Virus record (IMG/VR): IMGVR_UViG_3300028422_000701
DNA from: a virus
Lineage: Duplodnaviria; Heunggongvirae; Uroviricota; Caudoviricetes
Length of the DNA: 64,000 bases
Direction: 5' to 3' (one strand)
Shown: piece after piece, positions 30,172-50,858 of the stretch
How the letters are laid out: each line of letters opens with the position of its first letter
Numbering within the stretch: the first letter of the stretch is position 1
Notes under the pieces: generated by a model
Database searches by the model: none
The model's input: only the letters and a program-made list of their open reading frames with translations
Told to the model about the DNA's origin: nothing
Position numbers and translations under genes: made by a program

Positions 30172-31103
30172 CTAAAATAATGTATTTTGTTTTGGTTTTG
30201 TACCATAAGTACAAACGTTATCTTTTGCTTTTTGTTCTAAGTACTTTATGTTAAATAAAGTTCTCTTCTTGTAGTCTTCACTAAGTTCCTCAATGGTATA
30301 ACCAAACTTATTTACATAACTAGTTATTGCCTTTTGTACTGGTAATGATTGGTTAACAAAGTGTTGTTTTTTGTTGGTACTTTTGTCACTTAATAGTATG
30401 GCACCAAAGTCTGACATTACACCACCATTAGCACTTTGCATAATCCAACTACTTGCGTCTGCACTGTATAATGGAAATTGTGCTATTAAATCAAAGTCTT
30501 GTACCCCTAAGGCATGAACCTTAATATCAGGATTTTTGCTATGTTTAATAATTTCAAATATCTTATGCAACTTAGCAACCTTTTCTGCCTTTGTTTTACC
30601 TACTATATTTCCAATAGCAACTAAATCTACTTTAGGTTCAAAGTTAAGTATATTCTCTAAATACATAGTATTACTACCAGCATGAAATACAGGAACAAGT
30701 TTTTGTGGACTTTTTACTTTACCATACATATATAAAAAGTTTTCCCACGTTTTCTTATTAGCTTCTAAACGTTCCTGACTTGTAGCATTTTTACCCAATC
30801 TGCCTGGTATTGAATCTACTTCCATAAAGTAACGTAAACCATCGTCCCATTTATTAACGTAAGCAATGTATTCATCTATGTCTACACTAACACCACGTGT
30901 CCAAGCAGTGAATGCACCACTATCTAAAAAAGTTAATTTACCTGCTGCACAACGTTTCTCAAATGGTCTTTTATCGTTCCAGTAACTTAATAACCTGTGT
31001 AGGTCTTGTTGGTCTATATACTCGTCAGCTTCAGGACACTGAACCGGACGCCAGCAAAATAAATATTAAAAGGTTTTTTATCTTTTAAATTGTTGCTGTT
31101 CAT
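30172..31103 (-). CDS. dpdA: DpdA-like (TGT-family) 7-deazaguanine DNA transglycosylase, 5' end disrupted by a +1/-1 frameshift
   Basis: ATG 31103 opens a 29-codon frame ending at 31014; the overlapping frame 31065 to 30172 contains FLDSGAF (TGT DSG motif) and VHALGV. Confidence 0.55.
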
Positions 31104-31108
31104 AATCA

Positions 31109-31819
31109 TCACTCTCCTTTATATTTCCAAATATAACCCAAACCTGTCTTGTTTACACCTTGTAAACACTTACCAATAGTATCAACACAACAATTATTAT
31201 CTTTTGCCGCTTGTACTATACTTGGATAACTATTTAAAAATTTTCCTTCTTTACTATATTGTTCTATTTCTTTACCCATAATTAATTTACAGTTTTTATG
31301 TGCTAGTATTTCTGGTAACAAATAAACCTCGTGTTCATATAACCATACATACCCCTTACATAATATTTTATTACGACAAGCATAATTAATACTATTATAA
31401 TGAACCTTCATTTGTTTGGCAGCTATACCACTACTTTCAAAAATGTTTATTTGGTTACCATTTAAATCGTATTGTAAAACTGTTTTACTTCTTTTGTTGT
31501 CCTTACCACTATTAACAGGACAAGCATCCCCACCTATTGTTGAATTAAAACCTTTATTATAACTATTATATAAATCAACATAGTAAATTTCTTTTTGTTT
31601 TAACTCTTTCATTGTGTTTGCATTATCTATAACTTCCCACGTAAAGTAATCTTTTGGATATTTACTTAGAGCCTTTTGGAATTTGTGGTTCTTTTTAAGG
31701 TCGTAATAATGTTTTTTAATACGTTCTTTTAAGGTATGGGTAGTTATTCCAATATAAACTCTTCCATCTTTATGTGTGCATTTGTAAACAATGCCTTCCA
31801 TATTATTCTCCTTTCTCAT
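31109..31819 (-). CDS. GIY-YIG homing endonuclease
   Basis: GIVYKCTHKDGRVYIGITT GIY-YIG motif. Confidence 0.65.
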   Translation of the reverse strand: MRKENNMEGIVYKCTHKDGRVYIGITTHTLKERIKKHYYDLKKNHKFQKALSKYPKDYFTWEVIDNANTMKELKQKEIYYVDLYNSYNKGFNSTIGGDACPVNSGKDNKRSKTVLQYDLNGNQINIFESSGIAAKQMKVHYNSINYACRNKILCKGYVWLYEHEVYLLPEILAHKNCKLIMGKEIEQYSKEGKFLNSYPSIVQAAKDNNCCVDTIGKCLQGVNKTGLGYIWKYKGE

Positions 31820-31889
31820 TACTTAAATTATACCATATCTGTGGTGAAATGTCAAGTAATATAAATAAAAAAAGTTGGTTGTTCACCAA

Positions 31890-32174
31890 CTATTTTTTAA
31901 GTAGTTTTACATTTACTCTGTCACGGTAACTACCATTATTTATCCATAATCTATATTCTTGATGTATTTCAAAACAGTGTGGATAGTTAATGTCTTCGTT
32001 GTAACATATAGACATCTCTTCATCAATTATGGGTATAGTAACATATTTGTGGTCTTTACTTAAAACTACACCACATTTGTATTCTCCATTAAAGTATTCG
32101 TTTTCTATAAGTATGTAATAATCTTCATAGGGTATATTTTCCTGTTTAAGGACCTTTATAACCTCGTTTAACAT
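31890..32174 (-). CDS. hypothetical protein
   Basis: ORF. Confidence 0.35.
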   Translation of the reverse strand: MLNEVIKVLKQENIPYEDYYILIENEYFNGEYKCGVVLSKDHKYVTIPIIDEEMSICYNEDINYPHCFEIHQEYRLWINNGSYRDRVNVKLLKK

Positions 32175-32395
32175 TACTTAATAAATAGGTAACCAAACAC
32201 TTTTAAAGCCGTGTACATACCCATTATACCCATAATACCACTAAAACTAATAGGGTGGGTAGCAAACCTGTATAACCCACTTGTTTCACTTGGTACACCA
32301 AATATGCGTGTACAAATAAATAGTACCATAAAACTAACTACAAATCCTATTATAAATAATATAGGGGTATCCCAACTAAATATTTCTTTTAGCAT
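32174..32395 (-). CDS. small membrane protein
   Basis: two TM segments. Confidence 0.35.
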   Translation of the reverse strand: MLKEIFSWDTPILFIIGFVVSFMVLFICTRIFGVPSETSGLYRFATHPISFSGIMGIMGMYTALKVFGYLFIK

Positions 32396-32868
32396 TTAGC
32401 ACCTCCAAAGTAAATTAAAAATCTCCAATTACTATTATCAATACGTTTCATTTTTAAGTCTTTAACCTGTTGTTTGTTATCATAATACATTGTTAACTGT
32501 TTGTTAACTAAGTCACTTGCCTTTAAGTCAGGGTATAAAGCAACTAATGTAGCAAGATCAACATTGTTAAGGTTGGTATAAGTTTGTTGTTCATAATTCA
32601 TATAATTACCAACTATTTTAGTGATACCAACTTCTATATCAGCATTTTCTACTTCTAGCATTTCTATTTTTTGGTTTATTGTAGTATTGTCAAGTAGTTT
32701 AAAACTAACGGAGAATAATAAACCTACCATTACAAAAAATGCTACCACAAACAGTGTGCCACCAATACCCAAAAATGTTTCTTGGGTATTATTATCATAC
32801 TTAGCATTGTCCCCCTTTGCTACAATAAACACACCACAAATCATTATTAGTAAACATATAATTACCAT
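32389..32868 (-). CDS. membrane protein
   Basis: two TM segments. Confidence 0.35.
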   Translation of the reverse strand: MVIICLLIMICGVFIVAKGDNAKYDNNTQETFLGIGGTLFVVAFFVMVGLLFSVSFKLLDNTTINQKIEMLEVENADIEVGITKIVGNYMNYEQQTYTNLNNVDLATLVALYPDLKASDLVNKQLTMYYDNKQQVKDLKMKRIDNSNWRFLIYFGGAKC

Positions 32869-32880
32869 ATTATTTCCTCC

Positions 32881-33648
32881 TTATAATATTATATTACCTT
32901 CACTTGGTTTAATGTCTCTTTGTAATAAGTAAAGGTATGCATCTTTAATATCATTTTCTTCTTTAGCACCACGACCATATGTACCGTTGTCAATTTGTGT
33001 CATAACAAGTTTTAAGTAAGCCATAACGTCACTTAATACATCGTCACTAAATTTCATACCATTTAGCATAAATGCAATAACTTTTCTAACACATGGTTTA
33101 CATTTAAAACAAGGTTTTCCATCGTGTGGGAAGTAACAACTAAAACTGCCGTTCCATGCTTCTTCTAGTGTACCACCTTTGTCTAAATACATTTTAAGTA
33201 ATTCACGTTTAGTGTATTCTTTAAAGTCTACATTAATACGTATATTACGTTCTTCAGTCCAGTGTTGTTTTTGGTACAAGAAACTAAATAGTTCTCCTGC
33301 CTTTTGTGCGAACTCAGGACTCTTATCTAAAACTCTGTCCCCGTAAGTTGCACCCAAACATATTTCATCGCCATAGTTAGTTGCTATAGCAGTAAAATAT
33401 AAGTTACGTAAAGGAATTATTTTATCTTCCCTTTCAATACTATGTAGGTTAAGTACATCTTTTAGTACAATAACATCACTATCTAGTTTACTTATTTCTT
33501 CTTTACTATAGCTACTATTAATATCTATGTATAGTTTTACATCAGGTTCCCATATTTTACTTATTAACCAACTATCCATACCACCACTATAAAGTAGTAC
33601 TTTTTTACTTTTTGGGTTAAAGTCTGTCATAACCATTACCCCTTTCAT
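32881..33648 (-). CDS. queC: 7-cyano-7-deazaguanine (preQ0) synthase
   Basis: PP-loop LLYSGGMDS; C-terminal zinc cluster CYFPHDGKPCFKCKPC. Confidence 0.65.
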   Translation of the reverse strand: MKGVMVMTDFNPKSKKVLLYSGGMDSWLISKIWEPDVKLYIDINSSYSKEEISKLDSDVIVLKDVLNLHSIEREDKIIPLRNLYFTAIATNYGDEICLGATYGDRVLDKSPEFAQKAGELFSFLYQKQHWTEERNIRINVDFKEYTKRELLKMYLDKGGTLEEAWNGSFSCYFPHDGKPCFKCKPCVRKVIAFMLNGMKFSDDVLSDVMAYLKLVMTQIDNGTYGRGAKEENDIKDAYLYLLQRDIKPSEGNIIL

Positions 33649-33904
33649 TATCGGCTTTTATTTTACCTTTAATATTTTTTAATCTTTGTTCAATACGTTT
33701 TATAATAACATTTTGTGCTTCCTCCATTGTGGCATACATAAAGTTTTCGTTAGTGTGTGTTGTACCGTTAGACACAATTTCATAACAAAGATTATTGTCT
33801 CTATCAATAGCCATACCCGTAACAGTATATTTATAAATGTTATCTTTATACCATAATTCATCGATTACGTATACATCTTGTCCTAGTTTAAATTTTGGTT
33901 CCAT
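33617..33904 (-). CDS. hypothetical protein
   Basis: ORF. Confidence 0.35.
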   Translation of the reverse strand: MEPKFKLGQDVYVIDELWYKDNIYKYTVTGMAIDRDNNLCYEIVSNGTTHTNENFMYATMEEAQNVIIKRIEQRLKNIKGKIKADNERGNGYDRL

Positions 33905-33905
33905 A

Positions 33906-34136
33906 TTATCTTTCTCCTTTTAAAATTAAATATTCATCTACAGCTCTAATAGATTCTACTACTTTATCAAGTAGTTCTATTAGTTTCTTTTCTTGGTTAA
34001 TATCTAAGTTGTTGTGTTGTATACCCATAACATTAACTTCATTATCAACCATATAATCTACTTTTTTATGGTCAGTAATAAATGTTGTATTACCCCACAA
34101 TCTAATATCGTAATCAGTTACACTTCTTTTTTCCAT
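33906..34136 (-). CDS. hypothetical protein
   Basis: ORF. Confidence 0.35.
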   Translation of the reverse strand: MEKRSVTDYDIRLWGNTTFITDHKKVDYMVDNEVNVMGIQHNNLDINQEKKLIELLDKVVESIRAVDEYLILKGER

Positions 34137-34147
34137 ATTAATCCTCC

Positions 34148-34567
34148 TTATTTAAAGTATGCTTTATTATGGTAGTCAACTAATTCATACTGTGTTAAAT
34201 CAGTACCAATTAATTCTTCAGGTGTTTTAGTAGGGTTACTTACAATACATTTAACAACGGCGTGTAAACCGTAATGTAATTGTAAACCTATTGTTTTACT
34301 TGTAATGCCTGTAATGTCACGTATGTCTTCCCATACTTCTTCATTACCGTAAGGTCTTTTACCGTCCATTTCCATAGCACCAAACTCACACCCATTATTA
34401 CTTATAAAGTATGCACGTCTTAAAAGTAATAAATGATAGTTAGTTAATACGTGTGTATTTATTTTTTCTTCATTTTTGTTAATAAGGTTAAGTTCTTTTA
34501 AAACCTCATCTCCATATTCATCTTGTATTAAAGCAATTGCCCTTTTGGCTTCTTTACTTAATTCCAT
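34148..34567 (-). CDS. hypothetical protein
   Basis: ORF. Confidence 0.4.
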   Translation of the reverse strand: MELSKEAKRAIALIQDEYGDEVLKELNLINKNEEKINTHVLTNYHLLLLRRAYFISNNGCEFGAMEMDGKRPYGNEEVWEDIRDITGITSKTIGLQLHYGLHAVVKCIVSNPTKTPEELIGTDLTQYELVDYHNKAYFK

Positions 34568-34624
34568 ATTACCCTCCTTTATATTACTATTATACCATAT
34601 TAATTATAGAAAGTAAAGGACTTA

Positions 34625-35071
34625 TTAAATAAGCCCTTGTTTTTCAAGTTTTTCTAGTACTTCGTTACGTTTATTGGTATTCCATACCATATTCATATGT
34701 CTATTACCAACTTCATTACGTACTTGATTTCTTGCAATTTTTCTATTATAAACAGTAAATTGTTTATTTTTACCACTACCAACAACTTCAACACCTAGTT
34801 TTGTTTTAAGTTGTTTACCATTTTTATCCCTGTTAAAAGGGTATATAAGTGTGTTCTTACCTAGTGTTTTACAAACATTTAAAGCATGGTTTAACTTTAG
34901 TTGTCTAATGGTATATTTAACTAGTTCCTTAAGGTTGTTAACTACTGTGTCTTCATTAGTAGTTGCATCTTTAATACTAACTGGTTCAATACCTTCCTTC
35001 GTTAGTTGTTCTTTAATTTCGTCAAGATCTGCATAAACATATCCAGCTGTTCTTAATTTTTTGTCGTCCAT
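34625..35071 (-). CDS. hypothetical protein
   Basis: ORF. Confidence 0.4.
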   Translation of the reverse strand: MDDKKLRTAGYVYADLDEIKEQLTKEGIEPVSIKDATTNEDTVVNNLKELVKYTIRQLKLNHALNVCKTLGKNTLIYPFNRDKNGKQLKTKLGVEVVGSGKNKQFTVYNRKIARNQVRNEVGNRHMNMVWNTNKRNEVLEKLEKQGLI

Positions 35072-35072
35072 A

Positions 35073-35615
35073 TTAATTCTCCTCTTTTATCATAATGTGA
35101 TTTAAGTTACGTTTTAAACCATTATCATCTAAACCATAACCATATACAAATAAGTCATCTATTACATATAACTTCCAATCAGGTATATATACTTTTTTAC
35201 TAGGGTCTATTGCTTTATCTAAAAGTACACACGTATTAATACTTACAGGATTCATTTTCATAAGTTCTTCAGTAACTGCTTTTAACGTAACCCCAGTATC
35301 ACAAATGTCGTCCATTATAATAACATGACAACCACCCACATCAGGTAATTTAGTTTCTATCTTTAATTTACCTTGTTTGTTGTCAGTGTAGCTTTTTACC
35401 TTTATAAATTCAAGTGTATGATCAGTAGTTAACTTACGTGTTAAGTCACTTACAAAGTGCACACTACCGTTTAAAATACCAATAATAACAACTTTATTTT
35501 CTTCGCTTGCTTGTATTTTTAATTTTAAATACTCGTCAATATCTATAGCTAAATATTTTAAATCGTATTGTAGTTCCTTACTATTTATTAAAACATTTTT
35601 ATTCTTTTTAAACAT
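35073..35615 (-). CDS. hpt: hypoxanthine-guanine-type phosphoribosyltransferase
   Basis: PRPP-binding motif VIIMDDICDTGVTL; ATG 35615 after aggagg RBS. Confidence 0.65.
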   Translation of the reverse strand: MFKKNKNVLINSKELQYDLKYLAIDIDEYLKLKIQASEENKVVIIGILNGSVHFVSDLTRKLTTDHTLEFIKVKSYTDNKQGKLKIETKLPDVGGCHVIIMDDICDTGVTLKAVTEELMKMNPVSINTCVLLDKAIDPSKKVYIPDWKLYVIDDLFVYGYGLDDNGLKRNLNHIMIKEEN

Positions 35616-35625
35616 TTTGTTCCTC

Positions 35626-35910
35626 CTAGTACCTACGTACATCTTTTATTCTTATATAGTCTCCACTACATTTTTGTAGTGTAATAATTTCACGTAAAAT
35701 AAGTTCTCCAAATGTAATTATAAGATACCAACTTGTTTCGTTTATTGGCAAGTTGGTAACCTTATACCCTACATTTTTGGTGTTAAGTATTAAACTATTA
35801 TATTCGTCTACTGTTAATATTTTATTTACTTTTGGATACCATAAATCTTTAGCTTTATAACTCATCTTGTATGTCTTCTCCATACCAACGTTCGTTAATT
35901 TCACCATCAC
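35626..35910 (-). CDS. hypothetical protein
   Basis: ORF overlapping the polymerase start. Confidence 0.3.
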   Translation of the reverse strand: MMVKLTNVGMEKTYKMSYKAKDLWYPKVNKILTVDEYNSLILNTKNVGYKVTNLPINETSWYLIITFGELILREIITLQKCSGDYIRIKDVRRY

Positions 35911-38125
35911 ATTTAATAGGCATCTTTAGTTTAATATTAGCAGCGTCTTTCATTATTTGTACCATTATACTTAACGCCTCCTTAGCATTTTCTTTTGGTA
36001 CTTCCCCAATTACTTCATCATGTATTGTAAGTAATGTCTTGTACCCAAGTTCACGTAATCTTTCATTTCTGTATAACATAAGTATTGCTACTTTAGTTAT
36101 ATCAGCACTACTACCTTGTATTGCACTATTTAGTATTTGTCTTTGTGCCTGTGCTATAGCTGTACCATTATCAATAATTTTAACTCTAAAATGTTGGGCT
36201 ATTTCAGGCATTCTTTTTCTAGCCTCCCATTTGTTAAATTGGTTTAACATATTACGGGCACTTTCACATAATGTAGGATCTTGTCCAGTAATACTAAATT
36301 GTGGTAAGTTATAATCAGGTAGTCTTCTTTTTCTTCCCCATATAGTTTTAACAAAACCTTTTTGTCTAACTAATTCTTGAAGTTGTTGTTCAAAAACTTT
36401 AATTGAAGGATAAGTTTCGTAGAAACGGTTAATAATATCCTTAGCTTCATCAACAGACGTTTTTATTTGTTCTGCAATACTTGCAGCCCCACGCCCATAT
36501 AAAATACCAAGTAAAACACTTTTAACATAACCTCTACGTTGTTTAGCTTCAGGACTAAATTTTTCTAAACATTCTTCATAAGGTAGGTTGTATATTTTAC
36601 TAGCCATGTCACTATATAAATCTTTACCTGTTGTATAGGCTTCAATCATATGTGGGTCTTGGGCTAGAAATGCAGTAAGTCTTGGTTCAATTTGGCTATA
36701 GTCAGCTCCTATAAAATAATAACCTTCTTTTGGTATAAACATTTTACGTATGTCTGTATTATGGGAAGGTATATTTTGTAAGTTAGGGTCACTACTACTA
36801 AATCTACCTGTATCAGCTCCATATTGGTTAAACTTACCGTGTACACGTCCAGTATTAGGACTAATACTTTTATTAGGTAGTTTATCAATATAAGTTCCAA
36901 GTAATTTTTTTAATCCTCTATATTCAAGTAACTTAGTTATCATTTGGTTAAGTTCAGGGTATGCCTTACCAACTTTTGCCAATTCTTTTTTACCAACACT
37001 TTCCTTTTTAAGTCCTACTTTTAAATAATCTACTTTTAATATTTTAAATAATAAAATATTAAATTGTGTAGGACTATCTAGGTTAACAGGGTCATTAAGT
37101 TTACTATATAACTCAGGTTGTTCCTGTTTAAATTGTGGTAAATAAGGGTTTATTAAGTTACTAACAAGTTCATTTAATTCTATAAAACAAGCATCTATTT
37201 GTTCAGTATACTTAACACTTAACTCATGTGCATATTCTATATCAATACTAACACCAGTATCCTCCATACTTGCTACTGCCTCAGTAAGTGGGGCTTCTAT
37301 TTGGGTAAATAAATAACCAGTATCTACTAAATCTTGTTCTATACAAGGCTCACTAACACCATCTAAAAATGGTAATTGGAATTTGTATAGTTCGTATGTA
37401 GCCCACGCATCAAATGCTGCATAGTAATACACACGGTTAGGGTCTAGTATGTCAAAGGTTAAATGTCCAAATAGTTTTTTATAATTATCAGGGTCTATTG
37501 TTTTCTCAGGTGTACCTAAACAATATTTTTCCCATAACCATTTTAAGGCATGAGAACTGTCGTTTTCGTTTAAAAACTTACCTGCAATAAGACAGTCCCA
37601 ATAAGGTCTTATGTATTCATTTCCTTTGTAGGCATTGTTTATGTATCTAAGGTCAAAGGTAGCATTGGCAAATAATACTTTTAATTTACCATTTCTACTT
37701 AAATCTATAATACTTTTTATAAAGTTAGTTGCGTCTATATTAGGGTAGTTTAAATGTCCAACAGGTACATACAAACTTGTCTCCCCCTCAGTGTATAAAC
37801 ACAAACCAACTAGTTTGTCGTCAATTGGGTTTAAGCCAGTTCCTTCTGTATCTAAAGATAAAACGCCTGTTTGAATTATCTTTTGTAAGTAATCATTCAG
37901 GCGTTGTTCATCTTTACATAATTCCAATACCACGTCAGGTCTTTTATGTTGTAGCCTTGTTACGTACTCGTCCATACGTTTATAACATTCTTCAACATCT
38001 TGTACCCTTGTTCTAACTACACGTACTTGTTTAGGCTTTTTAGCTTTATCAATTACTTCTTTAGCAGTTAGTTTTGGTGTTGGTTGTTTAACGGCAATGC
38101 CAGCAAATAAACTATTTTGGTTCAC
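35855..38125 (-). CDS. family A DNA polymerase (Pol I-like) with 3'-5' exonuclease domain
   Basis: Exo I LSLDTEGTGL; motif A DYSQIEPR; motif B RRGYVKSVLLGILYG; motif C TIHDEV. Confidence 0.85.
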   Translation of the reverse strand: MNQNSLFAGIAVKQPTPKLTAKEVIDKAKKPKQVRVVRTRVQDVEECYKRMDEYVTRLQHKRPDVVLELCKDEQRLNDYLQKIIQTGVLSLDTEGTGLNPIDDKLVGLCLYTEGETSLYVPVGHLNYPNIDATNFIKSIIDLSRNGKLKVLFANATFDLRYINNAYKGNEYIRPYWDCLIAGKFLNENDSSHALKWLWEKYCLGTPEKTIDPDNYKKLFGHLTFDILDPNRVYYYAAFDAWATYELYKFQLPFLDGVSEPCIEQDLVDTGYLFTQIEAPLTEAVASMEDTGVSIDIEYAHELSVKYTEQIDACFIELNELVSNLINPYLPQFKQEQPELYSKLNDPVNLDSPTQFNILLFKILKVDYLKVGLKKESVGKKELAKVGKAYPELNQMITKLLEYRGLKKLLGTYIDKLPNKSISPNTGRVHGKFNQYGADTGRFSSSDPNLQNIPSHNTDIRKMFIPKEGYYFIGADYSQIEPRLTAFLAQDPHMIEAYTTGKDLYSDMASKIYNLPYEECLEKFSPEAKQRRGYVKSVLLGILYGRGAASIAEQIKTSVDEAKDIINRFYETYPSIKVFEQQLQELVRQKGFVKTIWGRKRRLPDYNLPQFSITGQDPTLCESARNMLNQFNKWEARKRMPEIAQHFRVKIIDNGTAIAQAQRQILNSAIQGSSADITKVAILMLYRNERLRELGYKTLLTIHDEVIGEVPKENAKEALSIMVQIMKDAANIKLKMPIKCDGEINERWYGEDIQDEL

Positions 38126-38835
38126 TAGAACATTTTAGCTGGTGAATTTGTATTGTTTGTTTGTGTAGGTGTTGTAGGCATAACAATATTAGGGTTAACA
38201 TTAAATTGTGTTGTTTGTGGTTGAACATGTTGTGAATATGCATTCATTATATTAGTACTTGTTTGGTTGGTGTTTAGGTTTAATGTACCTTGTGCTGCTT
38301 GAATCATTTCTTCTTCAGTTAACTCAAGTACAAAACCTTTGTGTCCATCAACTATTTTTTTACGTTCAGGTAAGTTAGGTACTGCACTATTAATAGCTGA
38401 TACCACAGGTGATATAAAGTATTTAGTGTCCTTACTACCTCTATTACCTTGTCTTGTAATGCTATATGGAATCTTATTTAAAGCTCCATTTTGGTTCATA
38501 AATACTATTAATTGTTCAATATGGTTTTTACCTCTATCCCAAATTAATACTTCTTCTGTACCTTCTTTTACAAGTTGAATCATAGCTCTTAACATTGGTT
38601 TATAACCAGAACGTGCTAATGCGTCGTTGTCACTGTTTTGTTTTACATATCTTTCCTTGTCTCCAATTTTAATTTTGTAAACAATAAACCAGTCCAATTC
38701 GTTAGGGTTATCCCCATATAAGAATCTAACCACGGCACTGTCACCGTTGTTTTGTAGGTTAAAGAAACTTGTACCTCCATTGTTACCATATTTTTTTAAT
38801 GCATCTTCAAGTGATAAGTTTGTGTTGTTGTTCAT
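38125..38835 (-). CDS. hypothetical protein with Q/N/T-rich C-terminal tail (possible ssDNA-binding protein)
   Basis: position beside the polymerase; low-complexity tail ending in F. Confidence 0.3.
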   Translation of the reverse strand: MNNNTNLSLEDALKKYGNNGGTSFFNLQNNGDSAVVRFLYGDNPNELDWFIVYKIKIGDKERYVKQNSDNDALARSGYKPMLRAMIQLVKEGTEEVLIWDRGKNHIEQLIVFMNQNGALNKIPYSITRQGNRGSKDTKYFISPVVSAINSAVPNLPERKKIVDGHKGFVLELTEEEMIQAAQGTLNLNTNQTSTNIMNAYSQHVQPQTTQFNVNPNIVMPTTPTQTNNTNSPAKMF

Positions 38836-38840
38836 ATTTT

Positions 38841-39275
38841 CTAATCCTCCTCTGTGTAAGTTGCGAAACTTGTTGGTGTTTCGTATAATTTAATTTCTGT
38901 TACCTTCATACCTACTGGCAATGCCTCATTTATATCTTTAAACATAATACGACTCATGTTTTCACAAGTAGTTCTACAACCTATTACTTTATTTTTGTAA
39001 CCAAGTTCTTGGATATATTTTAAAATAGGTTCGTCACCACAAGCAATAAATGCGTGGTCATATTTTGATAAGATAGCTTCTTCTACGATAGATTTTAAGT
39101 TTTTAAAATCTATTATCATACCCTCTTTAGGGTGGGCTGTAATACTTTCAACTACTGGACCTGTTAAGGTTACAAATAGTTTATAAGTATGTCCATGAAT
39201 ATTTTTACATAAACCATCATGATTTAGTAATTGGTGAGAACAGTCAAAACTGTACTCTTTTGTTACGGTTAACAT
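38841..39275 (-). CDS. queD: 6-carboxy-5,6,7,8-tetrahydropterin synthase
   Basis: CSHQLLNHDGLCKNIHGHTYKL (Cx..HGH zinc motif). Confidence 0.7.
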   Translation of the reverse strand: MLTVTKEYSFDCSHQLLNHDGLCKNIHGHTYKLFVTLTGPVVESITAHPKEGMIIDFKNLKSIVEEAILSKYDHAFIACGDEPILKYIQELGYKNKVIGCRTTCENMSRIMFKDINEALPVGMKVTEIKLYETPTSFATYTEED

Positions 39276-39557
39276 ATTATTCCTCCCTTTAATAAGTTGT
39301 AGCCCCCCACCAAACTACATAATACTGTACCCATTATTAATGGTTAACTAACCACCATGTCAACAGTATCCCAATAAATTAATTATACCACAATCTTGTT
39401 AGAATGTAAATACTTTTTAACAACTTATGAGTTGTTTATATAAATCATAAGCCACACTCCAACCAAGAAATGCAGCAAGTGTTGTAATAAGGGCTATGAC
39501 AATAGCAGCTACCATTACGGCAAACATTTTTTCATCTTCGCTCATATGTAATCCTCC

Positions 39558-40244
39558 TTATTTAATTGCTTGTAAAAATCTTTCTTCTAAGTGTTTATCA
39601 GTTCTAAATACACCTCTTGTACTTATAGTAACTGTACTACTATCAAATGGTGCTTCAACTCCTCTGGCTGTCATACAAGTATGTGTTTCTTCTAAACAAA
39701 CAATTACACCTTGTGCGTCCATTTCTTCCATTAAAGCATTTGCTATTTGATCACTTAGTCTTTCTTGTAGTTGGAAACGTTTAGCGTAACCTTCTACCAT
39801 TCTAGGTATTTTACTTAAACCAACTACTTTTTTATTAGGTAAATAACCAATACTTACATAACCATAAACAGGTAATACGTGATGTTCACAAACACTACGG
39901 CATTCAATACGTTTAACAATTACAATATCGTCATTACCACTATCTTTAAAGTTATAATCTAGGTCATCGTCATCTAAGTTAAATTGTACTTCTAAGTAGT
40001 CTTTAGGATTTTCACAATAACCTCTTGTCATTTCAAGCCAAGCTTTAACTACTCTAAAAGGTGTGTTTTTCATACCATTACTTTCACTATCACCACCACA
40101 AATGTCAATAAGTTTAGCAATACTAGGCATGATTTCGTTTTCTATACTTTCCATTATATCGTTATGGTCACCACTGCCTTTAATAATAACTCTATTTATG
40201 AGTAGTTTATTTATTTTTTCACGTTGTTTTTCATTTAATTCCAT
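39558..40244 (-). CDS. folE: GTP cyclohydrolase I
   Basis: CEHHVLP zinc-binding motif plus a D/N-rich insertion. Confidence 0.75.
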   Translation of the reverse strand: MELNEKQREKINKLLINRVIIKGSGDHNDIMESIENEIMPSIAKLIDICGGDSESNGMKNTPFRVVKAWLEMTRGYCENPKDYLEVQFNLDDDDLDYNFKDSGNDDIVIVKRIECRSVCEHHVLPVYGYVSIGYLPNKKVVGLSKIPRMVEGYAKRFQLQERLSDQIANALMEEMDAQGVIVCLEETHTCMTARGVEAPFDSSTVTISTRGVFRTDKHLEERFLQAIK

Positions 40245-40253
40245 ATTTCCTCC

Positions 40254-41021
40254 TTACACGCCCTGCCTATTACCCCATACCAAAGTATGAAGTTGTAACA
40301 TAACATAAACGTCTTCCATATCACTTTCTAAAACCTTGGTAACAAGTTTTTCATAATCTTGTATTACCCTGTTTCGTACATTTAATATATCTTGTTCCCC
40401 AACGTCAGTGTTACCAACATTTAAGTACAATTTTATACCAGTTCTATTTGTACGTAGTTTAATATCTTGTATTAAGTTATAGTATCTACGAGCAAATTCA
40501 AAATCCTCGTCGTTAAATACTGGTATTTTAATTGTAACAGGTAAATTAAAACGTACTTTAGGATTATACATTAACCAATTACCTACGTTATCAATTACAT
40601 CAGGTTGTCCACTAGATGGTGCTTTTGGGCTAATAACCACATTGTCTACCTTGTCTAGCCAATCAGGTAATTTACTACCTTGTGTTTCAACATCCACTTT
40701 AATGTCAGCTTCATGTAATGCATTAATAACTTTACTAAAGTCATATAAACAAGGGTTACCACCTGTTAGTACAACATTTTTTGTATTTGTGTCTTGACAT
40801 TTAATTATTAATTCAAATAGTAGTTCATCTTCAGTATACACTTTTGTGTCATTATTTCTCTTCCAAGCAAACTTACTATCACACCAACTACAATTAAAAT
40901 CACACCCTACAACTCTAACAAATAAAGTTTTTTTACCTGTGTTAGGACCTTCTCCTTGTATTGTAGGACCTCAACCGAACACTTCGGCAACAGGTATTCT
41001 TACTGTTCTTTCGGTATTCAT
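40254..41021 (-). CDS. queE: 7-carboxy-7-deazaguanine synthase (radical SAM) interrupted by an in-frame TGA
   Basis: ATG 41021 gives MNTERTVRIPVAEVFG, then TGA (plus-strand tca 40971-40973), then GPTIQGEGPNTGKKTLFVRVVGCDFNCSWCDS continuing into the annotated ORF. Confidence 0.7.
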
Positions 41022-41587
41022 ATGTTATCACTCTCCTTTATATGTTTCCACGAACGGTTGTTATAAATATCCCATATAGTAGCATATTTTATATTAGGAT
41101 ACTTTTTACAAACGTCTTTTAAACATATCTTTTTATATTTCATATTTTTAATGTCTTGTACTATATTAACATTAAGTAAACAGGCTGGGTTGTCTACCCC
41201 TAACCGATTACGTAAATGAGTTCGTATAGCGTGTTGTGTATTTTCTTTAGCGGTTACCCATTCTAAGTTGTTAACAAAACAATTATTTTTGTTGCCATCA
41301 ATATGGTTAACCTGTGGTAAATTATCAGGATTTGGTATAAAAGTTTGGGCTACCAATATGTGAACTAAATGTTGTTGTTCCTTACCATCTTTACATAAGG
41401 AAACAACGGGGTATCCGTTAGGTTTAAATGTATTTTTCTTTATAACACCTTTAAACGTACGAAGTCTACCCATACTATCTGTGTAAGTTCTATCAAGACT
41501 TCTTACTGTTCCATAATTAGATATCTCATACCAACCTTCATAGTTAGGAATCGGTTTAAATATTTCTGCTACTGGTATTTTAACCAT
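41018..41587 (-). CDS. HNH homing endonuclease with AP2-like DNA-binding domain
   Basis: GWYEISNYGTVRS AP2-like; NHIDGNKNNCFVNNLEWVTAKEN HNH_3. Confidence 0.6.
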   Translation of the reverse strand: MVKIPVAEIFKPIPNYEGWYEISNYGTVRSLDRTYTDSMGRLRTFKGVIKKNTFKPNGYPVVSLCKDGKEQQHLVHILVAQTFIPNPDNLPQVNHIDGNKNNCFVNNLEWVTAKENTQHAIRTHLRNRLGVDNPACLLNVNIVQDIKNMKYKKICLKDVCKKYPNIKYATIWDIYNNRSWKHIKESDNI

Positions 41588-48114: not shown

Positions 48115-48191
48115 TGGTGCTCCCGATAGGACTCGAACCTACAAGACCTTGTTTCTAAGACAAGGATGTTTACCAGTTTCATCACAGGAGC
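48115..48191 (-). tRNA. tRNA with anticodon UAG (Leu anticodon) but class-I (short variable arm) shape
   Basis: acceptor GCTCCTG/CGGGAGC plus A plus CCA; anticodon arm CCTTGT-CTTAGAA-ACAAGG; T-arm GTAGG-TTCGAGT-CCTAT. Confidence 0.55.
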
Positions 48192-48196
48192 ATATT

Positions 48197-48276
48197 TGGA
48201 GACCTAAGTAGGATTCGAACCTACGACATATACCAGATTTGCAGTCTGGCGCCTTAAACCACTTGGCTATTAAGTC
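48197..48276 (-). tRNA. tRNA-Cys(GCA)
   Basis: acceptor GACTTAA/TTAGGTC; anticodon loop CTGCAAA; CCA encoded. Confidence 0.7.
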
Positions 48277-48281
48277 ATATA

Positions 48282-48373
48282 TGGCGTCGAGTACTAGATT
48301 CGAACTAGTGGATCCCCTAAAGGATCGACGGTTTAGCAAACCGTTGGTTTAAGCCATGCTCACCCAACTCGAC
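48282..48373 (-). tRNA. tRNA-Ser(GCU)
   Basis: acceptor GTCGAGT/ACTCGAC; loop TTGCTAA; long variable arm. Confidence 0.7.
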
Positions 48374-48474
48374 ATGAAGTGTAAGGTACGTACTTTTGAA
48401 AGGTTGTTTCCCTATGTCTTAGGTAGAGCCTTACGTACACTAAGACGTATATGTAGATAATAAGTATACAATTT

Positions 48475-48550
48475 TGGTTGTCCCTGAAGGATTCGAACCT
48501 CCACATTACGGGTTCAAGGCCCGCTATCTTACCAATTTGATCAAGGGACA
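48475..48550 (-). tRNA. tRNA-Gln(UUG)
   Basis: acceptor TGTCCCT/AGGGACA; loop CCTTGAA. Confidence 0.7.
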
Positions 48551-48556
48551 ATACTA

Positions 48557-48631
48557 TGGTGTTCCCGATAGGATTCGGACCTATGTAATACGCTTTAGAA
48601 GAGCGTTGCCTATCCACTAGACTACGAGAAC
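48557..48631 (-). tRNA. tRNA-Arg(UCU)
   Basis: acceptor GTTCTCG/CGGGAAC; loop CTTCTAA. Confidence 0.7.
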
Positions 48632-48869
48632 ATAATGGCGCACGATTTCTACACTGGAATACGTGCCTAAGTGTTCGTATCAACTGCTTACCTATAAAAC
48701 TTCGAATTAATACAGGTGCCTTCAACGTAGTATAACTGGTACTAACCCTTGAGGCTTATACAACCCAATCTATATTTGCGTAGTATAGAAACGACTTCCT
48801 ATGGTTCACCGGAAGTTAGGTTACTCTATTTCATACTAAATATACCACTATTTAGTAAAATATTTTTAA

Positions 48870-48946
48870 TGGCGGTTCGTACGGGAGTCGAACCCGTTTG
48901 CTAACTCGCTGACAACGAGGTGTCCTAACCATTAGACCTACGAACC
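48870..48946 (-). tRNA. tRNA-Asp(GUC)
   Basis: acceptor GGTTCGT/ACGAACC; loop TTGTCAG. Confidence 0.7.
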
Positions 48947-49343
48947 ATTAAAGGGCTGGAAGATGAGGAATCGAACCCCAAGCAAATCTTTATTATACTA
49001 TATATTTACTGCAGTACTATATAGTTTTTATTATATTCAAACACTTTCTAAAGCTGACGCTATCCATTTGTCTTATCTTCCAATATAAAAATGGTGAGGG
49101 GTATAAAGGAGTCGAACCTTTATTTACACCGTACATAGCCAACCCGTCAGTTGGAATTGTTACCACAAGGCAACAACCTTCCCCGTCAACCCCATATAAG
49201 TGGCACACAGTGTAAGAATCGAACTTACCCAGTCGGTTTTGGAGACCAACTCGCCATCCTTGGAACATTCCCATGCATATAAATATATCGTAACCCCGTG
49301 TTTTAATTGCTTTCTGCACACGATACTGACCAGCAATAATAAA

Positions 49344-49431
49344 TGGTGCTCCCCGCGAGACTCGAACTCGCACGCCCACAACGGGCATAGGATTTTAAGT
49401 CCTACGTGTCTACCAATTCCACCAGGAGAGC
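49344..49431 (-). tRNA. tRNA-Leu(UAA)
   Basis: acceptor GCTCTCC/GGGGAGC; loop CTTAAAA; long variable arm. Confidence 0.7.
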
Positions 49432-49604
49432 ATGAAGACTTTTTTACACTACTAGGTAAAGTCAAACCCCGTATGTTTTGGATCCACGACCTGCTTATGT
49501 AAACATACAAACAATATTAACTTGCTGGCGAACTTTTACTAGTTAACAAATAAAAGCTGGTTCAGAACTTTTAGTACGGTATTTTCTCACCGTTAATTTT
49601 TATA

Positions 49605-49680
<76 letters not shown>

Positions 49681-49691
49681 AAGTTAGGTAA

Positions 49692-49982: not shown

Positions 49983-50055
49983 AAATACCTCCTTATTACC
50001 CCTATTAAGAAACTACGGTAGGTTAGTTTCTTAATACGAGTAACAAAATAATAAA

Positions 50056-50131
50056 TGGTGGACAGACTTGGTATCGAACCAAGATCCGAGGATTTTCAGT
50101 CCCCTGCATAGACCATCTTTGCTATCTGTCC
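50056..50131 (-). tRNA. tRNA-Phe(GAA)
   Basis: acceptor GGACAGA/TCTGTCC; loop CTGAAAA. Confidence 0.7.
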
Positions 50132-50205
50132 AAATATAAGTTGTTTAATTAACTTATACATATATTATAACATACAACGTACTAAAAGTAAATATTAAAG
50201 TATGA

Positions 50206-50850: not shown

Positions 50851-50858
50851 AAATATAA

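What the first reader, a model, noticed from the sequence alone, without database searches (positions are those of the whole stretch)
30172..41021. 7-deazaguanine (preQ0-type) DNA hypermodification gene set dispersed through the replication module
folE (39558-40244), queD (38841-39275), queE (40254-41021), queC (32881-33648) and a TGT-family dpdA-like gene (30172-31103) are all present on the minus strand. They are interspersed with polymerase, clamp, recA and homing-endonuclease genes. No queF-like nitrile reductase and no amidotransferase-fused QueC were seen. By established pathway knowledge the encoded product would therefore be 2'-deoxy-preQ0 in DNA, unless an unrecognised tailoring enzyme is present among the many hypothetical ORFs (33617-35071).
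Basis: partly seen in the sequence, partly recalled or inferred. Interest (0 to 1): 0.6.

Follow-up and report, generated by a model that had tools for sequence, protein, structure and literature searches.

The report
Deazaguanine genes interrupted by endonuclease cassettes
This phage does carry the gene set for replacing guanine in its DNA with a 7-deazaguanine base, but two key genes (queE and dpdA) are each broken a few codons in by a short "coding gap" at the edge of a homing-endonuclease cassette, so the pathway works only if ribosomes get across those gaps.

Summary
The gene set is real. folE, queD, a divergent phage-type queC, queE and a DpdA1-like dpdA lie on the minus strand, in synteny with Bacillus phage Flasso. 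No QueF, Gat-QueC, ArcS or DpdL/M/N homologue was found in the window.

queE has an in-frame TGA inside a 6-nt insertion (GGT TGA GGT). dpdA has a 5-nt frameshifting insertion (GTC CG GTT). Two assemblies agree on both.

Each lesion lies at the 3' junction of a homing-endonuclease cassette that supplies a new ribosome-binding site, start codon and duplicated N-terminal codons. This is the architecture of the T4 mobA/gene 60 bypass cassette.

Homologous gaps occur at the same codons in other contigs. In one lineage the endonuclease has decayed while the gapped queE stays intact, with pN/pS about 0.1. The gaps therefore look like conserved, tolerated cassette features rather than random decay.

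My favoured reading is that they protect against self-cleavage and are crossed by short ribosomal hops or read-through, which would yield dPreQ0 DNA. The main rival is that the pathway is silenced. Expression was not shown.

The parts
30172..31041 (-). dpdA body (QCPEADEY... to stop): DpdA1-like DNA-guanine transglycosylase, 289 codons open
   Evidence: tblastn against Flasso DpdA gives 44% identity over residues 11-298. PHROG 887 E 1e-46. Closest relatives are 62-68% identical. Only 6 of 112 invariant columns are changed, within the range of intact homologues. An intact homologue models as a TGT-fold barrel.
31042..31046 (-). dpdA coding gap. In the zero frame the sequence reads GTC CGG TTC. 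The 5 extra nt (CG + GTT) lie between duplicated Val codons GTC and GTT.
   Evidence: Alignment to L057, L064, L066, L068 and Flasso shows 5 extra nt. CGG is the rarest sense codon in the window (4 of 16,937). L076 has a homologous gap at the same codon, GTT TGA C GTA.
31047..31103 (-). New dpdA 5' end: start codon, N-terminal extension (MNSNNLKDKK) and the segment PFNIYFAGV that encodes the first barrel strand
   Evidence: Relatives have only 4-8 residues before YFAG. Strand 1 is residues 5-9 in the model of P0002.
31109..31819 (-). GIY-YIG/NUMOD1 homing endonuclease gene. Its stop codon overlaps the upstream ATG of dpdA.
   Evidence: Pfam GIY-YIG and NUMOD1; PHROG 314. A remnant of a homologous C-terminus sits upstream of the L076 gap.
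31827..31891 (-). Terminator-like hairpin (31891-31873) followed by a 12/12 consensus extended -10 promoter (31855-31827) driving the GIY-YIG gene and dpdA
   Evidence: This is a consensus match only.
31108..31123 (-). 16-mer TATAAAGGAGAGTGAT (ribosome-binding-site module) at the 3' end of the GIY-YIG gene
   Evidence: There are exactly two exact copies in the window, the other at 41027-41042, against 0.06 expected. The two copies are read in different frames in the two endonucleases.
32881..33648 (-). Divergent phage-type QueC (PP-loop SGGMDS; Cys cluster C-x8-C-x2-C-x2-C)
   Evidence: Pfam QueC 42 bits; TIGR00364 24 bits against a cutoff of 150. A family profile hits only QueC structures (2PG3, E 5e-5). 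The gene is always adjacent to dpdA and is the only queC in about 50 dpdA-queC-queD-queE-folE clusters.
38841..39275 (-). queD (6-carboxytetrahydropterin synthase)
   Evidence: Pfam PTPS 111 bits; TIGR03367 83.1 bits (cutoff 89.25). It is the only PTPS-family ORF in the window.
39558..40244 (-). folE (GTP cyclohydrolase I)
   Evidence: Pfam 193.8 bits; NF006825 193.1 bits (cutoff 174).
40254..40967 (-). queE body (PTIQGEG... to stop), B. subtilis-type 7-carboxy-7-deazaguanine synthase
   Evidence: With the N-terminal segment joined, TIGR03365 scores 220.8 bits (cutoff 206.1). It is 55-66% identical to intact homologues. Only 4 of 94 invariant columns are changed.
40968..40973 (-). queE coding gap: TGA GGT, inserted between GGT (Gly16) and CCT (Pro)
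   Evidence: L073 and L077-L080 have a homologous 6-nt gap, TAA AGA, at the same place.
40974..41021 (-). New queE 5' end: start codon (ATGA overlap with the endonuclease stop), MNTERTV, and RIPVAEVFG, which duplicates the parental N-terminus
   Evidence: The parental copy MVKIPVAEIF lies at 41587-41558. All close QueE homologues begin M..IPVAEIFGPTIQGEG.
41018..41587 (-). HNH/NUMOD4 homing endonuclease ORF. Its first 10 codons (41587-41558) are the original queE start, and the insertion spans 41557-40971.
   Evidence: Pfam NUMOD4 and HNH_3. The N-terminus matches the QueE consensus. The same fusion is seen in P0242/L073 and P0367/L077.
41027..41042 (-). Second copy of the 16-mer TATAAAGGAGAGTGAT, at the 3' end of the HNH gene
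35073..35642 (-). Possible accessory gene: hypoxanthine/guanine phosphoribosyltransferase-like enzyme. It might salvage the guanine released by DpdA (inference only).
   Evidence: Pfam Pribosyltran 85 bits; TIGR01203 123.9 bits (cutoff 150). It is absent from relatives.

Best explanation
The region holds a phage 7-deazaguanine DNA-modification module of the Flasso/Dp-1 kind.
- FolE, QueD and QueE make CDG from GTP.
- A divergent phage QueC converts CDG, presumably to preQ0.
- A DpdA1-like transglycosylase swaps the base into DNA.
- No QueF or other tailoring enzyme was found, so the expected product is dPreQ0.

In this genome, queE and dpdA have each been captured by a homing-endonuclease cassette built like the T4 mobA/gene 60 element.
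- The cassette carries the endonuclease gene: an HNH gene fused to queE codons 1-10, and a GIY-YIG gene just upstream of dpdA.
- It supplies a shared ribosome-binding-site module and a new start codon.
- It supplies a short extension and, in queE, a copy of the conserved N-terminal codons; the dpdA 5' segment occupies the matching position, but no second copy was found.
- At the joint with the resident gene it leaves a 5-6 nt coding gap.

I infer two things about the gap. First, it breaks up the re-created endonuclease target and so protects the carrier genome. Second, ribosomes cross it.
- At queE the route would be a +6 'stop-hop' (GGU-UGA-GGU) or UGA read-through.
- At dpdA the route would be a +5 hop of peptidyl-tRNA-Val from GUC to GUU while the A site waits on CGG, the rarest codon.

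Both hops would give exactly the consensus proteins.

Shown: the gene identities, the lesions, the cassette architecture, its recurrence in other contigs, and purifying selection on a gapped queE elsewhere.
Inferred: the self-immunity role, the bypass itself and its efficiency, and the dPreQ0 product.
For: Gene set and synteny:
- Gene identities and synteny with Flasso are supported.

The lesions are real:
- Two assemblies are identical over both sites.
- They are 5- and 6-nt insertions, not homopolymer errors.

Cassette architecture:
- The endonuclease N-terminus MVKIPVAEIF matches the QueE consensus start.
- The second copy, RIPVAEVFG, differs from it at synonymous sites.
- An identical 16-mer lies at both endonuclease 3' ends, read in different frames.
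- The new start codons overlap the endonuclease stop codons.
- This matches the described MobA element: an HNH endonuclease, an N-terminal extension, a homologous region, and a gap containing stops or frameshifts that blocks self-nicking (bioRxiv 10.1101/2022.08.31.505936).

Hop-compatible design:
- Take-off and landing codons match at both window gaps and at the L076 gap (GTT TGA C GTA).
- The codon after take-off is a stop or the rarest codon CGG at all four gap types.
- A random insertion gives a matched pair plus a slow codon with probability of about 0.004 per site.
- Synthetic +5 and +6 hops over slow codons are documented (PMC5009743).

Recurrence and selection:
- The same queE cassette and gap position occur with an endonuclease only 49% identical (L073).
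- In L077-L080 the endonuclease has decayed by independent lesions while the gapped queE stays intact, in two cases with an intact intein.
- The extein parts of queE (intein excluded) in those three alleles show pN/pS of 0.09-0.16, with binomial P between 2e-4 and 6e-3.
- The window's queE and dpdA bodies are as conserved at invariant columns as intact homologues.
- Ordinary lesions in about 50 related clusters are of a different kind: one nonsense codon and one 1-nt deletion.
Against: - No expression data exist, and natural short hops have never been demonstrated (PMC5009743).
- The L073/L077-L080 gap (GGT TAA AGA) has no matched landing codon, so a hop cannot be the general mechanism. UAA read-through is normally weak.
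- The nascent peptides at take-off are only 16-19 residues long, with no resemblance to the gene 60 peptide signal.
- The predicted stem-loops are modest (z -1.5 and -2.0).
- Signs of decay exist in relatives. L073 has extra-C frameshifts in queD and at the queE 3' end. L076 has lost the ATG of its extension. L064/L065 carry a dpdA nonsense codon in two samples.
- L073 versus L077 shows that the cassette homes actively. An intact gene body can therefore simply mean a recent invasion.
- Loss of dpdA function is a known escape route from anti-modification glycosylases (bioRxiv 10.1101/2025.10.29.685425).
- No second cassette with an intact GIY-YIG gene was found for dpdA.
Confidence: 0.5

Rival explanations
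1. Endonuclease-driven silencing. The cassettes are selfish insertions that inactivated queE and dpdA. The module is dead or dying in this phage, its DNA carries ordinary guanine, and the intact gene bodies only reflect recent invasion. The loss may be tolerated, or even favoured, for example as escape from defences that recognise deazaguanine DNA.
For: - By standard decoding both products are truncated and lack catalytic motifs.
- Two lesions in one pathway fit relaxed selection.
- Relatives show further lesions: L073 queD and the queE 3' end; an L064/L065 dpdA nonsense codon in two samples; L013 and L046.
- The cassette homes actively.
- dpdA loss-of-function mutants escape the Dag1 glycosylase.
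- The L073-type gap has no workable hop.
Against: - The restoration apparatus (ribosome-binding site, ATG, in-frame copy of the N-terminal codons) is more conserved than the endonuclease itself: about 80% nt identity against 49% aa identity. In a dead gene it would be pointless baggage.
- The stop is retained as a stop (TGA versus TAA).
- Both queE gap variants are in frame.
- The duplicated Val codons are kept as Val through third-position changes in both dpdA gaps.
- The gapped queE is under purifying selection while its endonuclease decays.
- None of the frameshifts lies in an A/T run.
Confidence: 0.33
2. One reading: five intact genes and an ordinary dPreQ0 pathway, with the two lesions being sequencing or assembly errors.
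For: - The bodies are intact and well conserved.
- Both assemblies probably derive from the same reads.
Against: - Insertions of 5 and 6 nt outside homopolymers are not typical read errors.
- The JGI and Logan assemblies agree base for base.
- Homologous gaps occur at the same codons in independent samples: L073, L076 and L077-L080.
Confidence: 0.04
3. Alternative genetic code or suppression: TGA is read as Trp or Gly (code 4 or 25, as JGI's gene caller assumed), or by a phage suppressor tRNA, so queE is simply open.
For: - JGI called QueE through the TGA as Trp.
- The genome has 30% GC and encodes 25 tRNAs.
Against: - TGA ends 10 of 80 long ORFs, and treating it as sense barely lengthens ORFs.
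- There are 153 TGG codons and no other in-frame TGA.
- The TGA aligns with an insertion, not with a conserved Trp or Gly.
- No tRNA has anticodon UCA.
- This view cannot explain the dpdA frameshift or the TAA in L073.
Confidence: 0.03
4. The module serves tRNA rather than DNA: the TGT-like enzyme inserts preQ0 into the phage's own GUN-anticodon tRNAs (Asp, Asn and His are encoded).
For: - The phage encodes tRNA-Asp, tRNA-Asn and tRNA-His.
- The enzyme has the TGT fold.
Against: - The best matches are phage DpdA proteins of phages with chemically verified deazaguanine DNA (Dp-1, Iggy and others).
- There is no Pfam TGT match.
- The protein is 300 aa, against 355-390 aa for the bacterial and eukaryotic TGT chains it matched; whether tRNA-binding or zinc subdomains are absent was not tested.
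- In 9g, dpdA did not complement tgt (PMC6884629).
Confidence: 0.03

Closest known systems
Bacillus phage Flasso (MZ357961) replication/deazaguanine module; Streptococcus phage Dp-1
   Same: - Same gene order: helicase-primase...PolA...que genes...dpdA-clamp-Cas4...RecA.
- DpdA 44.7% identical to Flasso and 33% to Dp-1.
- FolE, QueD and QueE are present.
   Different: - Flasso and Dp-1 encode QueF, and Dp-1 DNA carries dPreQ1 at 1.7% of G (PMC6884629). The window has no QueF.
- The window's QueC belongs to a different, divergent subfamily.
- The window's queE is closer to a Clostridia/phage clade (55-66%) than to Flasso's (37%).
- queE and dpdA are interrupted.
dPreQ0 phages (Escherichia phage CAjan, Pseudomonas phage Iggy, Mycobacterium phage Rosebush)
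   Same: FolE/QueD/QueE/QueC plus DpdA without QueF, ArcS or Gat-QueC. This is the gene content that gives dPreQ0 (PMC6884629, PMC10484667). DpdA is about 30% identical.
   Different: - Different phage lineage and host range.
- Their QueC is canonical and their genes are intact.
- The modification has been measured there and not here.
T4-like mobA / gene 60 mobile cassette with 50-nt translational bypass
   Same: - An HNH homing endonuclease inserted in a conserved gene.
- A downstream part with a new start that overlaps the endonuclease ORF.
- An N-terminal extension plus an element-borne copy of the displaced codons.
- A gap with a stop or frameshift right after a Gly take-off codon followed by a stop.
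- The gap is retained after the endonuclease decays (searches compared with 50, 77, 122).
   Different: - The gap is 5-7 nt rather than 20-50 nt.
- There is no evident nascent-peptide signal or strong take-off hairpin.
- The target genes differ (queE, dpdA).
- One cassette uses a GIY-YIG enzyme.
- One variant lacks a matched landing codon.
- Bypass is unproven, and homology to MobA was not tested.
Synthetic 'stop-hops' and +5/+6 hops (Weiss et al. 1987, as reviewed in PMC5009743)
   Same: Matched codons flank a stop or slow codon, so that 9 nt specify one amino acid. GGT TGA GGT is exactly this layout, and GTC CG GTT is a +5 hop layout.
   Different: Those were engineered constructs, and the review calls non-programmed hopping low in efficiency. 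The review states that no natural case is known.

Membership tests
Phage DpdA (DpdA1-type DNA-guanine transglycosylase) | Full-length sequence similarity to DpdA of phages with verified deazaguanine DNA | tested here: met
   Flasso 44.7% over 96% of the length (E 2e-74); Dp-1 33% over 97% (E 3e-44); Iggy 31.6% (E 1e-26). PHROG 887 E 1e-46. The bacterial DpdA model NF041059 scores only 18.6 bits against a cutoff of 200, as expected for the phage subfamily.
Phage DpdA (DpdA1-type DNA-guanine transglycosylase) | TGT-type TIM barrel with the invariant aspartates (bDpdA D95/F99, D130, H181, D256) | tested here: met
   The AlphaFold model of the 66%-identical intact homologue P0002 has pLDDT 93.9, and all top PDB hits are TGTs (probability 1.00). 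The motifs FLDSGAF, EVDS, FHAG and SADASSW are present in the window sequence (residue roles from PMC10164549). The motif-to-residue mapping was done by eye.
Phage DpdA (DpdA1-type DNA-guanine transglycosylase) | A single open reading frame encoding the whole enzyme | tested here: not met
   A 5-nt insertion at about 31046-31042 shifts the frame. The longest ORF (217 aa) lacks the first strand and the FLDSGAF Asp.
Phage DpdA (DpdA1-type DNA-guanine transglycosylase) | Exchange of guanine in DNA for a 7-deazaguanine base | not testable with these tools
   Needs an enzyme assay or nucleoside LC-MS/MS.
QueE, B. subtilis type (TIGR03365) | Score above the curated cutoff, with the CxxxCxxC cluster and the QGEG motif | tested here: met
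   220.8 bits against a cutoff of 206.1, but only after removing the 6-nt gap. GCDFNCSWC and PTIQGEG are present.
QueE, B. subtilis type (TIGR03365) | Uninterrupted ORF | tested here: not met
   In-frame TGA at 40973-40971. The 195-aa ORF lacks the iron-sulfur motif.
QueC (7-cyano-7-deazaguanine synthase, TIGR00364 / PF06508) | Equivalog-level score | tested here: not met
   24 bits against a cutoff of 150.3.
QueC (7-cyano-7-deazaguanine synthase, TIGR00364 / PF06508) | Family-level match, PP-loop SGGxDS and C-terminal Cys cluster | tested here: met
   PF06508 42 bits against a cutoff of 22. SGGMDS and C171/C180/C183/C186 are invariant in the subfamily alignment. The profile hits only QueC structures (2PG3, E 4.8e-5).
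QueC (7-cyano-7-deazaguanine synthase, TIGR00364 / PF06508) | Converts CDG to preQ0 rather than stopping at ADG or doing something else | not testable with these tools
   Only genomic linkage is available. It is the sole QueC in about 50 dpdA-queC-queD-queE-folE clusters. It also occurs with a YhhQ-like transporter and without folE/queD/queE in L066.
FolE / QueD | Curated HMM scores | tested here: met
   FolE NF006825 193.1 bits against a cutoff of 174. QueD: Pfam PTPS 111 bits against a cutoff of 22.4; TIGR03367 83.1 bits against a cutoff of 89.25, just below.
Tailoring enzymes (QueF, Gat-QueC, ArcS, DpdL, DpdM/DUF3109, DpdN formyltransferase) | Any ORF of the window matching these families | tested here: not met
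   About 60 ORFs were scanned with Pfam and some with NCBIfam and PHROGs, with no match. tblastn with Flasso QueF gave no hit. There is only one PTPS-family ORF. Small hypothetical ORFs and the 44 kb outside the window remain open.
MobA/gene 60-type endonuclease cassette with coding gap | Endonuclease inserted in the target ORF; new start overlapping the endonuclease ORF; N-terminal extension plus an element-borne copy of the displaced codons | tested here: met
   queE: (a sharp identity boundary at the EIF fusion point). dpdA: there is an extension, a shared ribosome-binding-site 16-mer and an endonuclease remnant in L076, but no parental 5' copy was found.
MobA/gene 60-type endonuclease cassette with coding gap | Gap with matched take-off and landing codons and a slow A-site codon | tested here: inconclusive
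   Matched in 3 of 4 gap types: window queE, window dpdA and L076 dpdA, but not in L073/L077-80. A slow codon follows in 4 of 4 (TGA, CGG, TGA, TAA).
MobA/gene 60-type endonuclease cassette with coding gap | Take-off stem-loop and nascent-peptide signal | tested here: inconclusive
   dpdA: the GUC lies in the 5' arm of a -13.4 kcal/mol hairpin (z -2.0). queE: the GGU lies in the 3' arm of a 6-bp hairpin (z -1.5). The peptide signal was not assessable.
MobA/gene 60-type endonuclease cassette with coding gap | The gap blocks self-cleavage, and ribosomes bypass it | not testable with these tools
   Indirect support only: the gapped queE is under purifying selection while its endonuclease decays.

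The most novel reading that the evidence does not exclude
These may be the first natural short-range translational hops. Under this reading, homing-endonuclease cassettes of two unrelated nuclease families carry 5-7 nt 'mini coding gaps' that immunise their own genome against cleavage. Ribosomes would cross the gaps by +5/+6/+7 re-pairing at duplicated codons, triggered by a stop or a near-unassigned CGG codon. DNA hypermodification in these phages would then depend on recoding.
Probability: 0.35. Interest if true: 0.85.

Novelty: new variant of a known kind. Interest (0 to 1): 0.68.

Why it matters
The module itself adds one more phage lineage to the known deazaguanine modifiers. It has a divergent QueC subfamily that is widespread in gut phages.

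The unexpected part is the pair of endonuclease cassettes with conserved mini-gaps.
- If the gaps are crossed, gene 60-style bypassing is not a T4 oddity. It would be a general trick of mobile endonucleases, workable with only a few nucleotides, and natural 'stop-hops' would finally have examples.
- If the gaps are not crossed, this shows selfish endonucleases switching off an anti-restriction pathway in nature.

Either way, gene callers mis-annotate these loci (truncated ORFs, or a wrong genetic code). Predictions of DNA modification from gene content alone can therefore be wrong.

Tried and rejected
- **Group I intron around the HNH gene.** There is no Rfam hit in the window. The endonuclease ORF fills 97% of the insert. 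The insert boundaries cannot place a terminal G and still restore EIFGPT.
- **Code 4/25 or a suppressor tRNA.** Rejected on stop-codon usage, TGG counts and tRNA anticodons.
- **Assembly artefact.** The Logan and JGI sequences are identical.
- **Alternative in-frame starts.**
  - In dpdA there is none before Met94.
  - In queE only an AUA (the Ile of PTIQGEG), preceded by a GAGGU Shine-Dalgarno-like sequence, lies before the Cys motif. I kept this as a minor sub-option (termination-reinitiation).
- **Classical -1 slippage for dpdA.** The only candidate is a weak U UUU site, which would destroy the YFAG motif.
- **Closer relatives or further instances.**
  - No megablast hit in phages.
  - No exact pattern hits in the viral, metagenome or genome collections.
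  - No close GIY-YIG relatives.
  - The endonuclease homologue P0244 turned out to be in an unrelated context.
- **Endonucleases next to dpdA in L058/L059.** dpdA is intact there, so they are not informative.
- **Apparent dpdA stops in L002/L053.** These lay upstream of the true start and were discarded.
- **Single-sequence PDB searches for QueC-like and DpdA.** They found nothing useful.

Full report
**1. What the window is**

The window is about 30% GC phage DNA. No nucleotide-level relative exists among deposited phages. The minus-strand block from about 23.8 to 48 kb is a replication module syntenic at 25-45% protein identity with Bacillus phage Flasso: replication protein, DnaB, primase, SSB-like protein, PolA, clamp, Cas4-like nuclease, RecU and RecA. 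The window comes from a 108,396-nt JGI contig. A 65,196-nt Logan contig of run SRR7216773 is identical wherever I compared them.

**2. Checking the observation**

Three of the five genes are intact at the stated coordinates.
- folE (39558-40244) passes curated family thresholds.
- queD (38841-39275) passes the Pfam threshold and lies just below the NCBIfam equivalog cutoff (83.1 against 89.25 bits).
- queC (32881-33648) is an intact ORF but scores only 24 bits on the QueC equivalog model (cutoff 150). It scores 42 bits on Pfam QueC, over its C-terminal two thirds.

The queC product keeps the PP-loop and the four-Cys cluster. A profile of its subfamily finds only QueC structures. Proteins about 60% identical are the only QueC in roughly fifty viral contigs, apparently of human-microbiome origin (one search names human faecal samples for one), that carry dpdA-queC-queD-queE-folE in a row. 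I therefore accept it as the pathway's QueC. Its product remains unverified.

The other two coordinates do not hold.
- The span 40254-41021 contains TGA at 40973-40971.
- The span 30172-31103 changes frame near 31046.
- Against Flasso, the 66%-identical relative L057 and eleven close QueE homologues, the window has exactly six extra bases in queE (...TTC GGT TGA GGT CCT...) and five in dpdA (...GGC GTC CG GTT CAG...).

The longest ORFs that remain are 195 and 217 aa. The first lacks the radical-SAM cysteines. The second lacks the first barrel strand and the FLDSGAF aspartate, which in bacterial DpdA is the essential general acid/base (PMC10164549).

With the insertions removed, QueE passes its equivalog cutoff (220.8 against 206.1 bits). 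DpdA then aligns end to end with phage DpdA proteins.

No QueF, amidotransferase, DUF3109 (DpdM), formyltransferase (DpdN) or second PTPS paralogue (DpdL) was found. This covers about 60 scanned ORFs and a tblastn search with Flasso QueF.

**3. The lesions are not noise**

- They are multi-base insertions outside homopolymers, and two assemblers reproduce them.
- JGI's gene caller read the TGA as Trp, which is a code-4 choice.
- Code 4 is excluded: TGA terminates 10 of 80 long ORFs, there are 153 TGG codons and no other in-frame TGA, and no tRNA has anticodon UCA.
- Rfam finds no intron.

**4. Anatomy of the two sites**

Each lesion lies 50-60 nt into a gene that starts at the stop codon of a homing-endonuclease gene. 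An HNH/NUMOD4 gene (41018-41587) precedes queE. A GIY-YIG/NUMOD1 gene (31109-31819) precedes dpdA.

The queE site:
- The HNH ORF begins MVKIPVAEIF.
- All close QueE homologues begin M..IPVAEIFGPTIQGEG.
- The endonuclease is therefore fused to the original first ten codons of queE, and a 587-nt insert (41557-40971) separates them from GPTIQGEG.
- The insert ends with a Shine-Dalgarno sequence, an ATG overlapping the endonuclease stop, seven new codons, a second copy of the lost codons (RIPVAEVFG, differing from the first copy at synonymous sites), and then TGA.

The dpdA site:
- It has the same 16-mer TATAAAGGAGAGTGAT at the endonuclease 3' end. There are two exact copies in 64 kb against 0.06 expected, and they are read in different frames.
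- It has an N-terminal extension that relatives lack.
- It has the segment PFNIYFAGV and then the 5-nt gap.

This is the layout described for the MobA element of T4-like phages. [quoted passage not shown] There the cassette prevents self-nicking and is bypassed by ribosomes (bioRxiv 10.1101/2022.08.31.505936).

**5. The gaps have a hop-like form**

- In queE, GGT is followed by TGA and then GGT.
- In dpdA, GTC (Val) is followed by CGG in frame, and GTT (Val) sits five bases on.
- CGG is the rarest sense codon here (4 of 16,937). The phage supplies tRNA-Arg UCU and ACG but not CCG.
- In each case the next cognate codon downstream of the take-off codon is the proposed landing codon.
- Resuming there gives exactly the consensus proteins (EVFG-PTIQGEG; YFAGV-QCPEA).
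- Simulated random insertions show a matched pair with probability of about 0.03, and a matched pair plus a slow next codon with probability of about 0.004 per site.
- Such +5 and +6 hops and 'stop-hops' were made synthetically, but no natural case is known (PMC5009743).
- Local hairpins exist but are modest.

**6. Other instances**

(a) L073 has an HNH enzyme only 49% identical, again fused to MKIPVAEIF. It is followed by ATG AAT ACT..., by ...AEVFG and by GGT TAA AGA CCA. The gap has the same position and the same six bases in frame, and again begins with a stop, but the landing codon is not matched. The junction is about 80% identical in DNA, more conserved than the endonuclease.

(b) L077-L080 come from four samples and carry the L073-type cassette in a Vut_1-queF-queC-queD-queE-folE operon, with a different first exon (MANFNIAEIF).
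- Identity to L073 jumps from about 50% to 95-100% exactly at the fusion point, which is the signature of homing.
- In L079 and L080 the endonuclease has decayed by independent lesions.
- The gap and the whole queE remain intact. In L077 and L079 queE includes an intact 284-codon intein.
- Among the three alleles, the extein parts (intein excluded) show 6-8 synonymous against 3-4 non-synonymous differences. This gives pN/pS of 0.09-0.16, with P between 2e-4 and 6e-3.
- A gapped queE is therefore kept by selection.

(c) L076 carries GTT TGA C GTA at the very codon of the window's dpdA gap. This is again a duplicated Val codon with a stop after the first. Upstream, only the last 27 codons of a homologous GIY-YIG/NUMOD1 gene survive, together with 21 identical bases of the 3' module. 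A cluster mate at least 90% identical is intact.

The window's own queE and dpdA bodies deviate at invariant columns no more than intact homologues do.

Ordinary lesions seen in about fifty related clusters are a nonsense codon and a single-base deletion.

**7. Against function**

- The L073/L077-type gap cannot be hopped by codon re-pairing.
- L073 also has two single-C insertions, in queD and at the queE 3' end. Curiously, each creates an in-frame CGG.
- L076 has lost the ATG of its extension.
- L064/L065 carry a plain TAA in dpdA in two samples.
- Phages are known to abandon dPreQ0 through dpdA mutations in order to escape a glycosylase defence.
- Active homing means that intact gene bodies may be young.
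- Nothing here measures translation.

**8. Verdict**

The gene set is real and of a known kind: a DpdA1-type module whose expected product, by gene content, is dPreQ0. It is not a tRNA-directed system.

Its queE and dpdA are interrupted by endonuclease-cassette coding gaps that recur in other genomes. At least for queE, these gaps are compatible with continued selection on the gene.

- I favour cassette-borne self-immunity gaps crossed by hopping or read-through, with confidence about 0.5.
- I give endonuclease-driven silencing about 0.33.
- Artefact, alternative code and a tRNA role are each at or below 0.04.

The chemistry of the DNA, the efficiency of any bypass and the product of the divergent QueC all need experiments.

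Noticed in passing
window 35073-35642 (-): A hypoxanthine/guanine phosphoribosyltransferase-like gene sits between PolA and queC (TIGR01203 123.9 bits, cutoff 150). It is absent from all relatives examined. It could recycle the guanine released by DpdA, but this is speculation.
   Followed up: partly
window 12521-12931 (+): An ORF with DUF1599 ('nucleotide modification associated domain 1'; PHROG 1485) is wedged between anaerobic ribonucleotide reductase nrdD (10474-12519) and its activase nrdG (12909-13442).
   Followed up: no
window 48115-54207 (-): A cluster of 25 tRNA genes. It includes Asp, Asn and His (queuosine-type GUN anticodons), two Val(UAC), Gly(UCC), and Arg(UCU, ACG) but no Arg(CCG). 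Some are unusually long (Met 52841-52941, 101 nt; Val 52671-52753, 83 nt). A thymidine kinase gene (50206-50742) lies among them.
   Followed up: partly
window 7607-10149, 13932-14882, 17492-17917, 19533-20711 (+): A tRNA-repair-like set: two RNA ligases, a P-loop kinase (AAA_33/KTI12), a NADAR-domain protein and a CCA-adding enzyme.
   Followed up: no
window 39417-39545 (-) and 39382-39410: A 42-codon membrane mini-ORF between folE and queD, followed by a near-consensus extended -10 promoter in front of queD.
   Followed up: no
L073:1317 and L073:2948: Two single-C insertions, in queD (CAT C GGC TAT) and at the queE 3' end (TGG C GGA AAT). Each creates a zero-frame CGG where a +1 shift would restore the protein. 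With the window's dpdA, that makes three frameshift sites with CGG in the A site, and none lies in an A/T run.
   Followed up: partly
L066:8553-10900 (ENA ERZ27301260, 75.6-kb contig): A relative carries a Vut_1/YhhQ-like transporter, the divergent QueC and DpdA, but has no folE/queD/queE in the syntenic slot. This hints at precursor salvage, and perhaps at a role for this QueC downstream of an imported base.
   Followed up: partly
L064:1123-1125 and L065 (two samples): dpdA of a 68%-identical relative has a TAA at a conserved Tyr codon (DEYIE*VNKYDEG). This is an ordinary nonsense allele seen in two independent assemblies.
   Followed up: partly
L077:957-2510 and L079: queE in these contigs carries a 284-codon intein with an HNH-like motif, inserted right after CDFNCEW in the radical-SAM cysteine motif. 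L080 has the intein-less allele. queE is thus targeted by two different selfish elements.
   Followed up: partly
L057:4110-7365 and L068: In the closest syntenic relatives, the PolA gene is split into 475-aa and 275-aa ORFs by a GIY-YIG endonuclease gene.
   Followed up: no
window 40254-41021 versus L001/L057: The window's queE is 55-66% identical to a Clostridia/phage QueE clade but only 37-38% identical to the queE of its syntenic relatives. This suggests gene replacement, perhaps by co-conversion during homing.
   Followed up: partly
window 31890-32868 (-): Three small ORFs lie between queC and the GIY-YIG gene. These genes are adjacent to each other in relatives. The ORFs are of 159, 73 and 94 aa, and the first two are predicted to be hydrophobic. 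The 159-aa ORF matches PHROG 31463, of unknown function.
   Followed up: no
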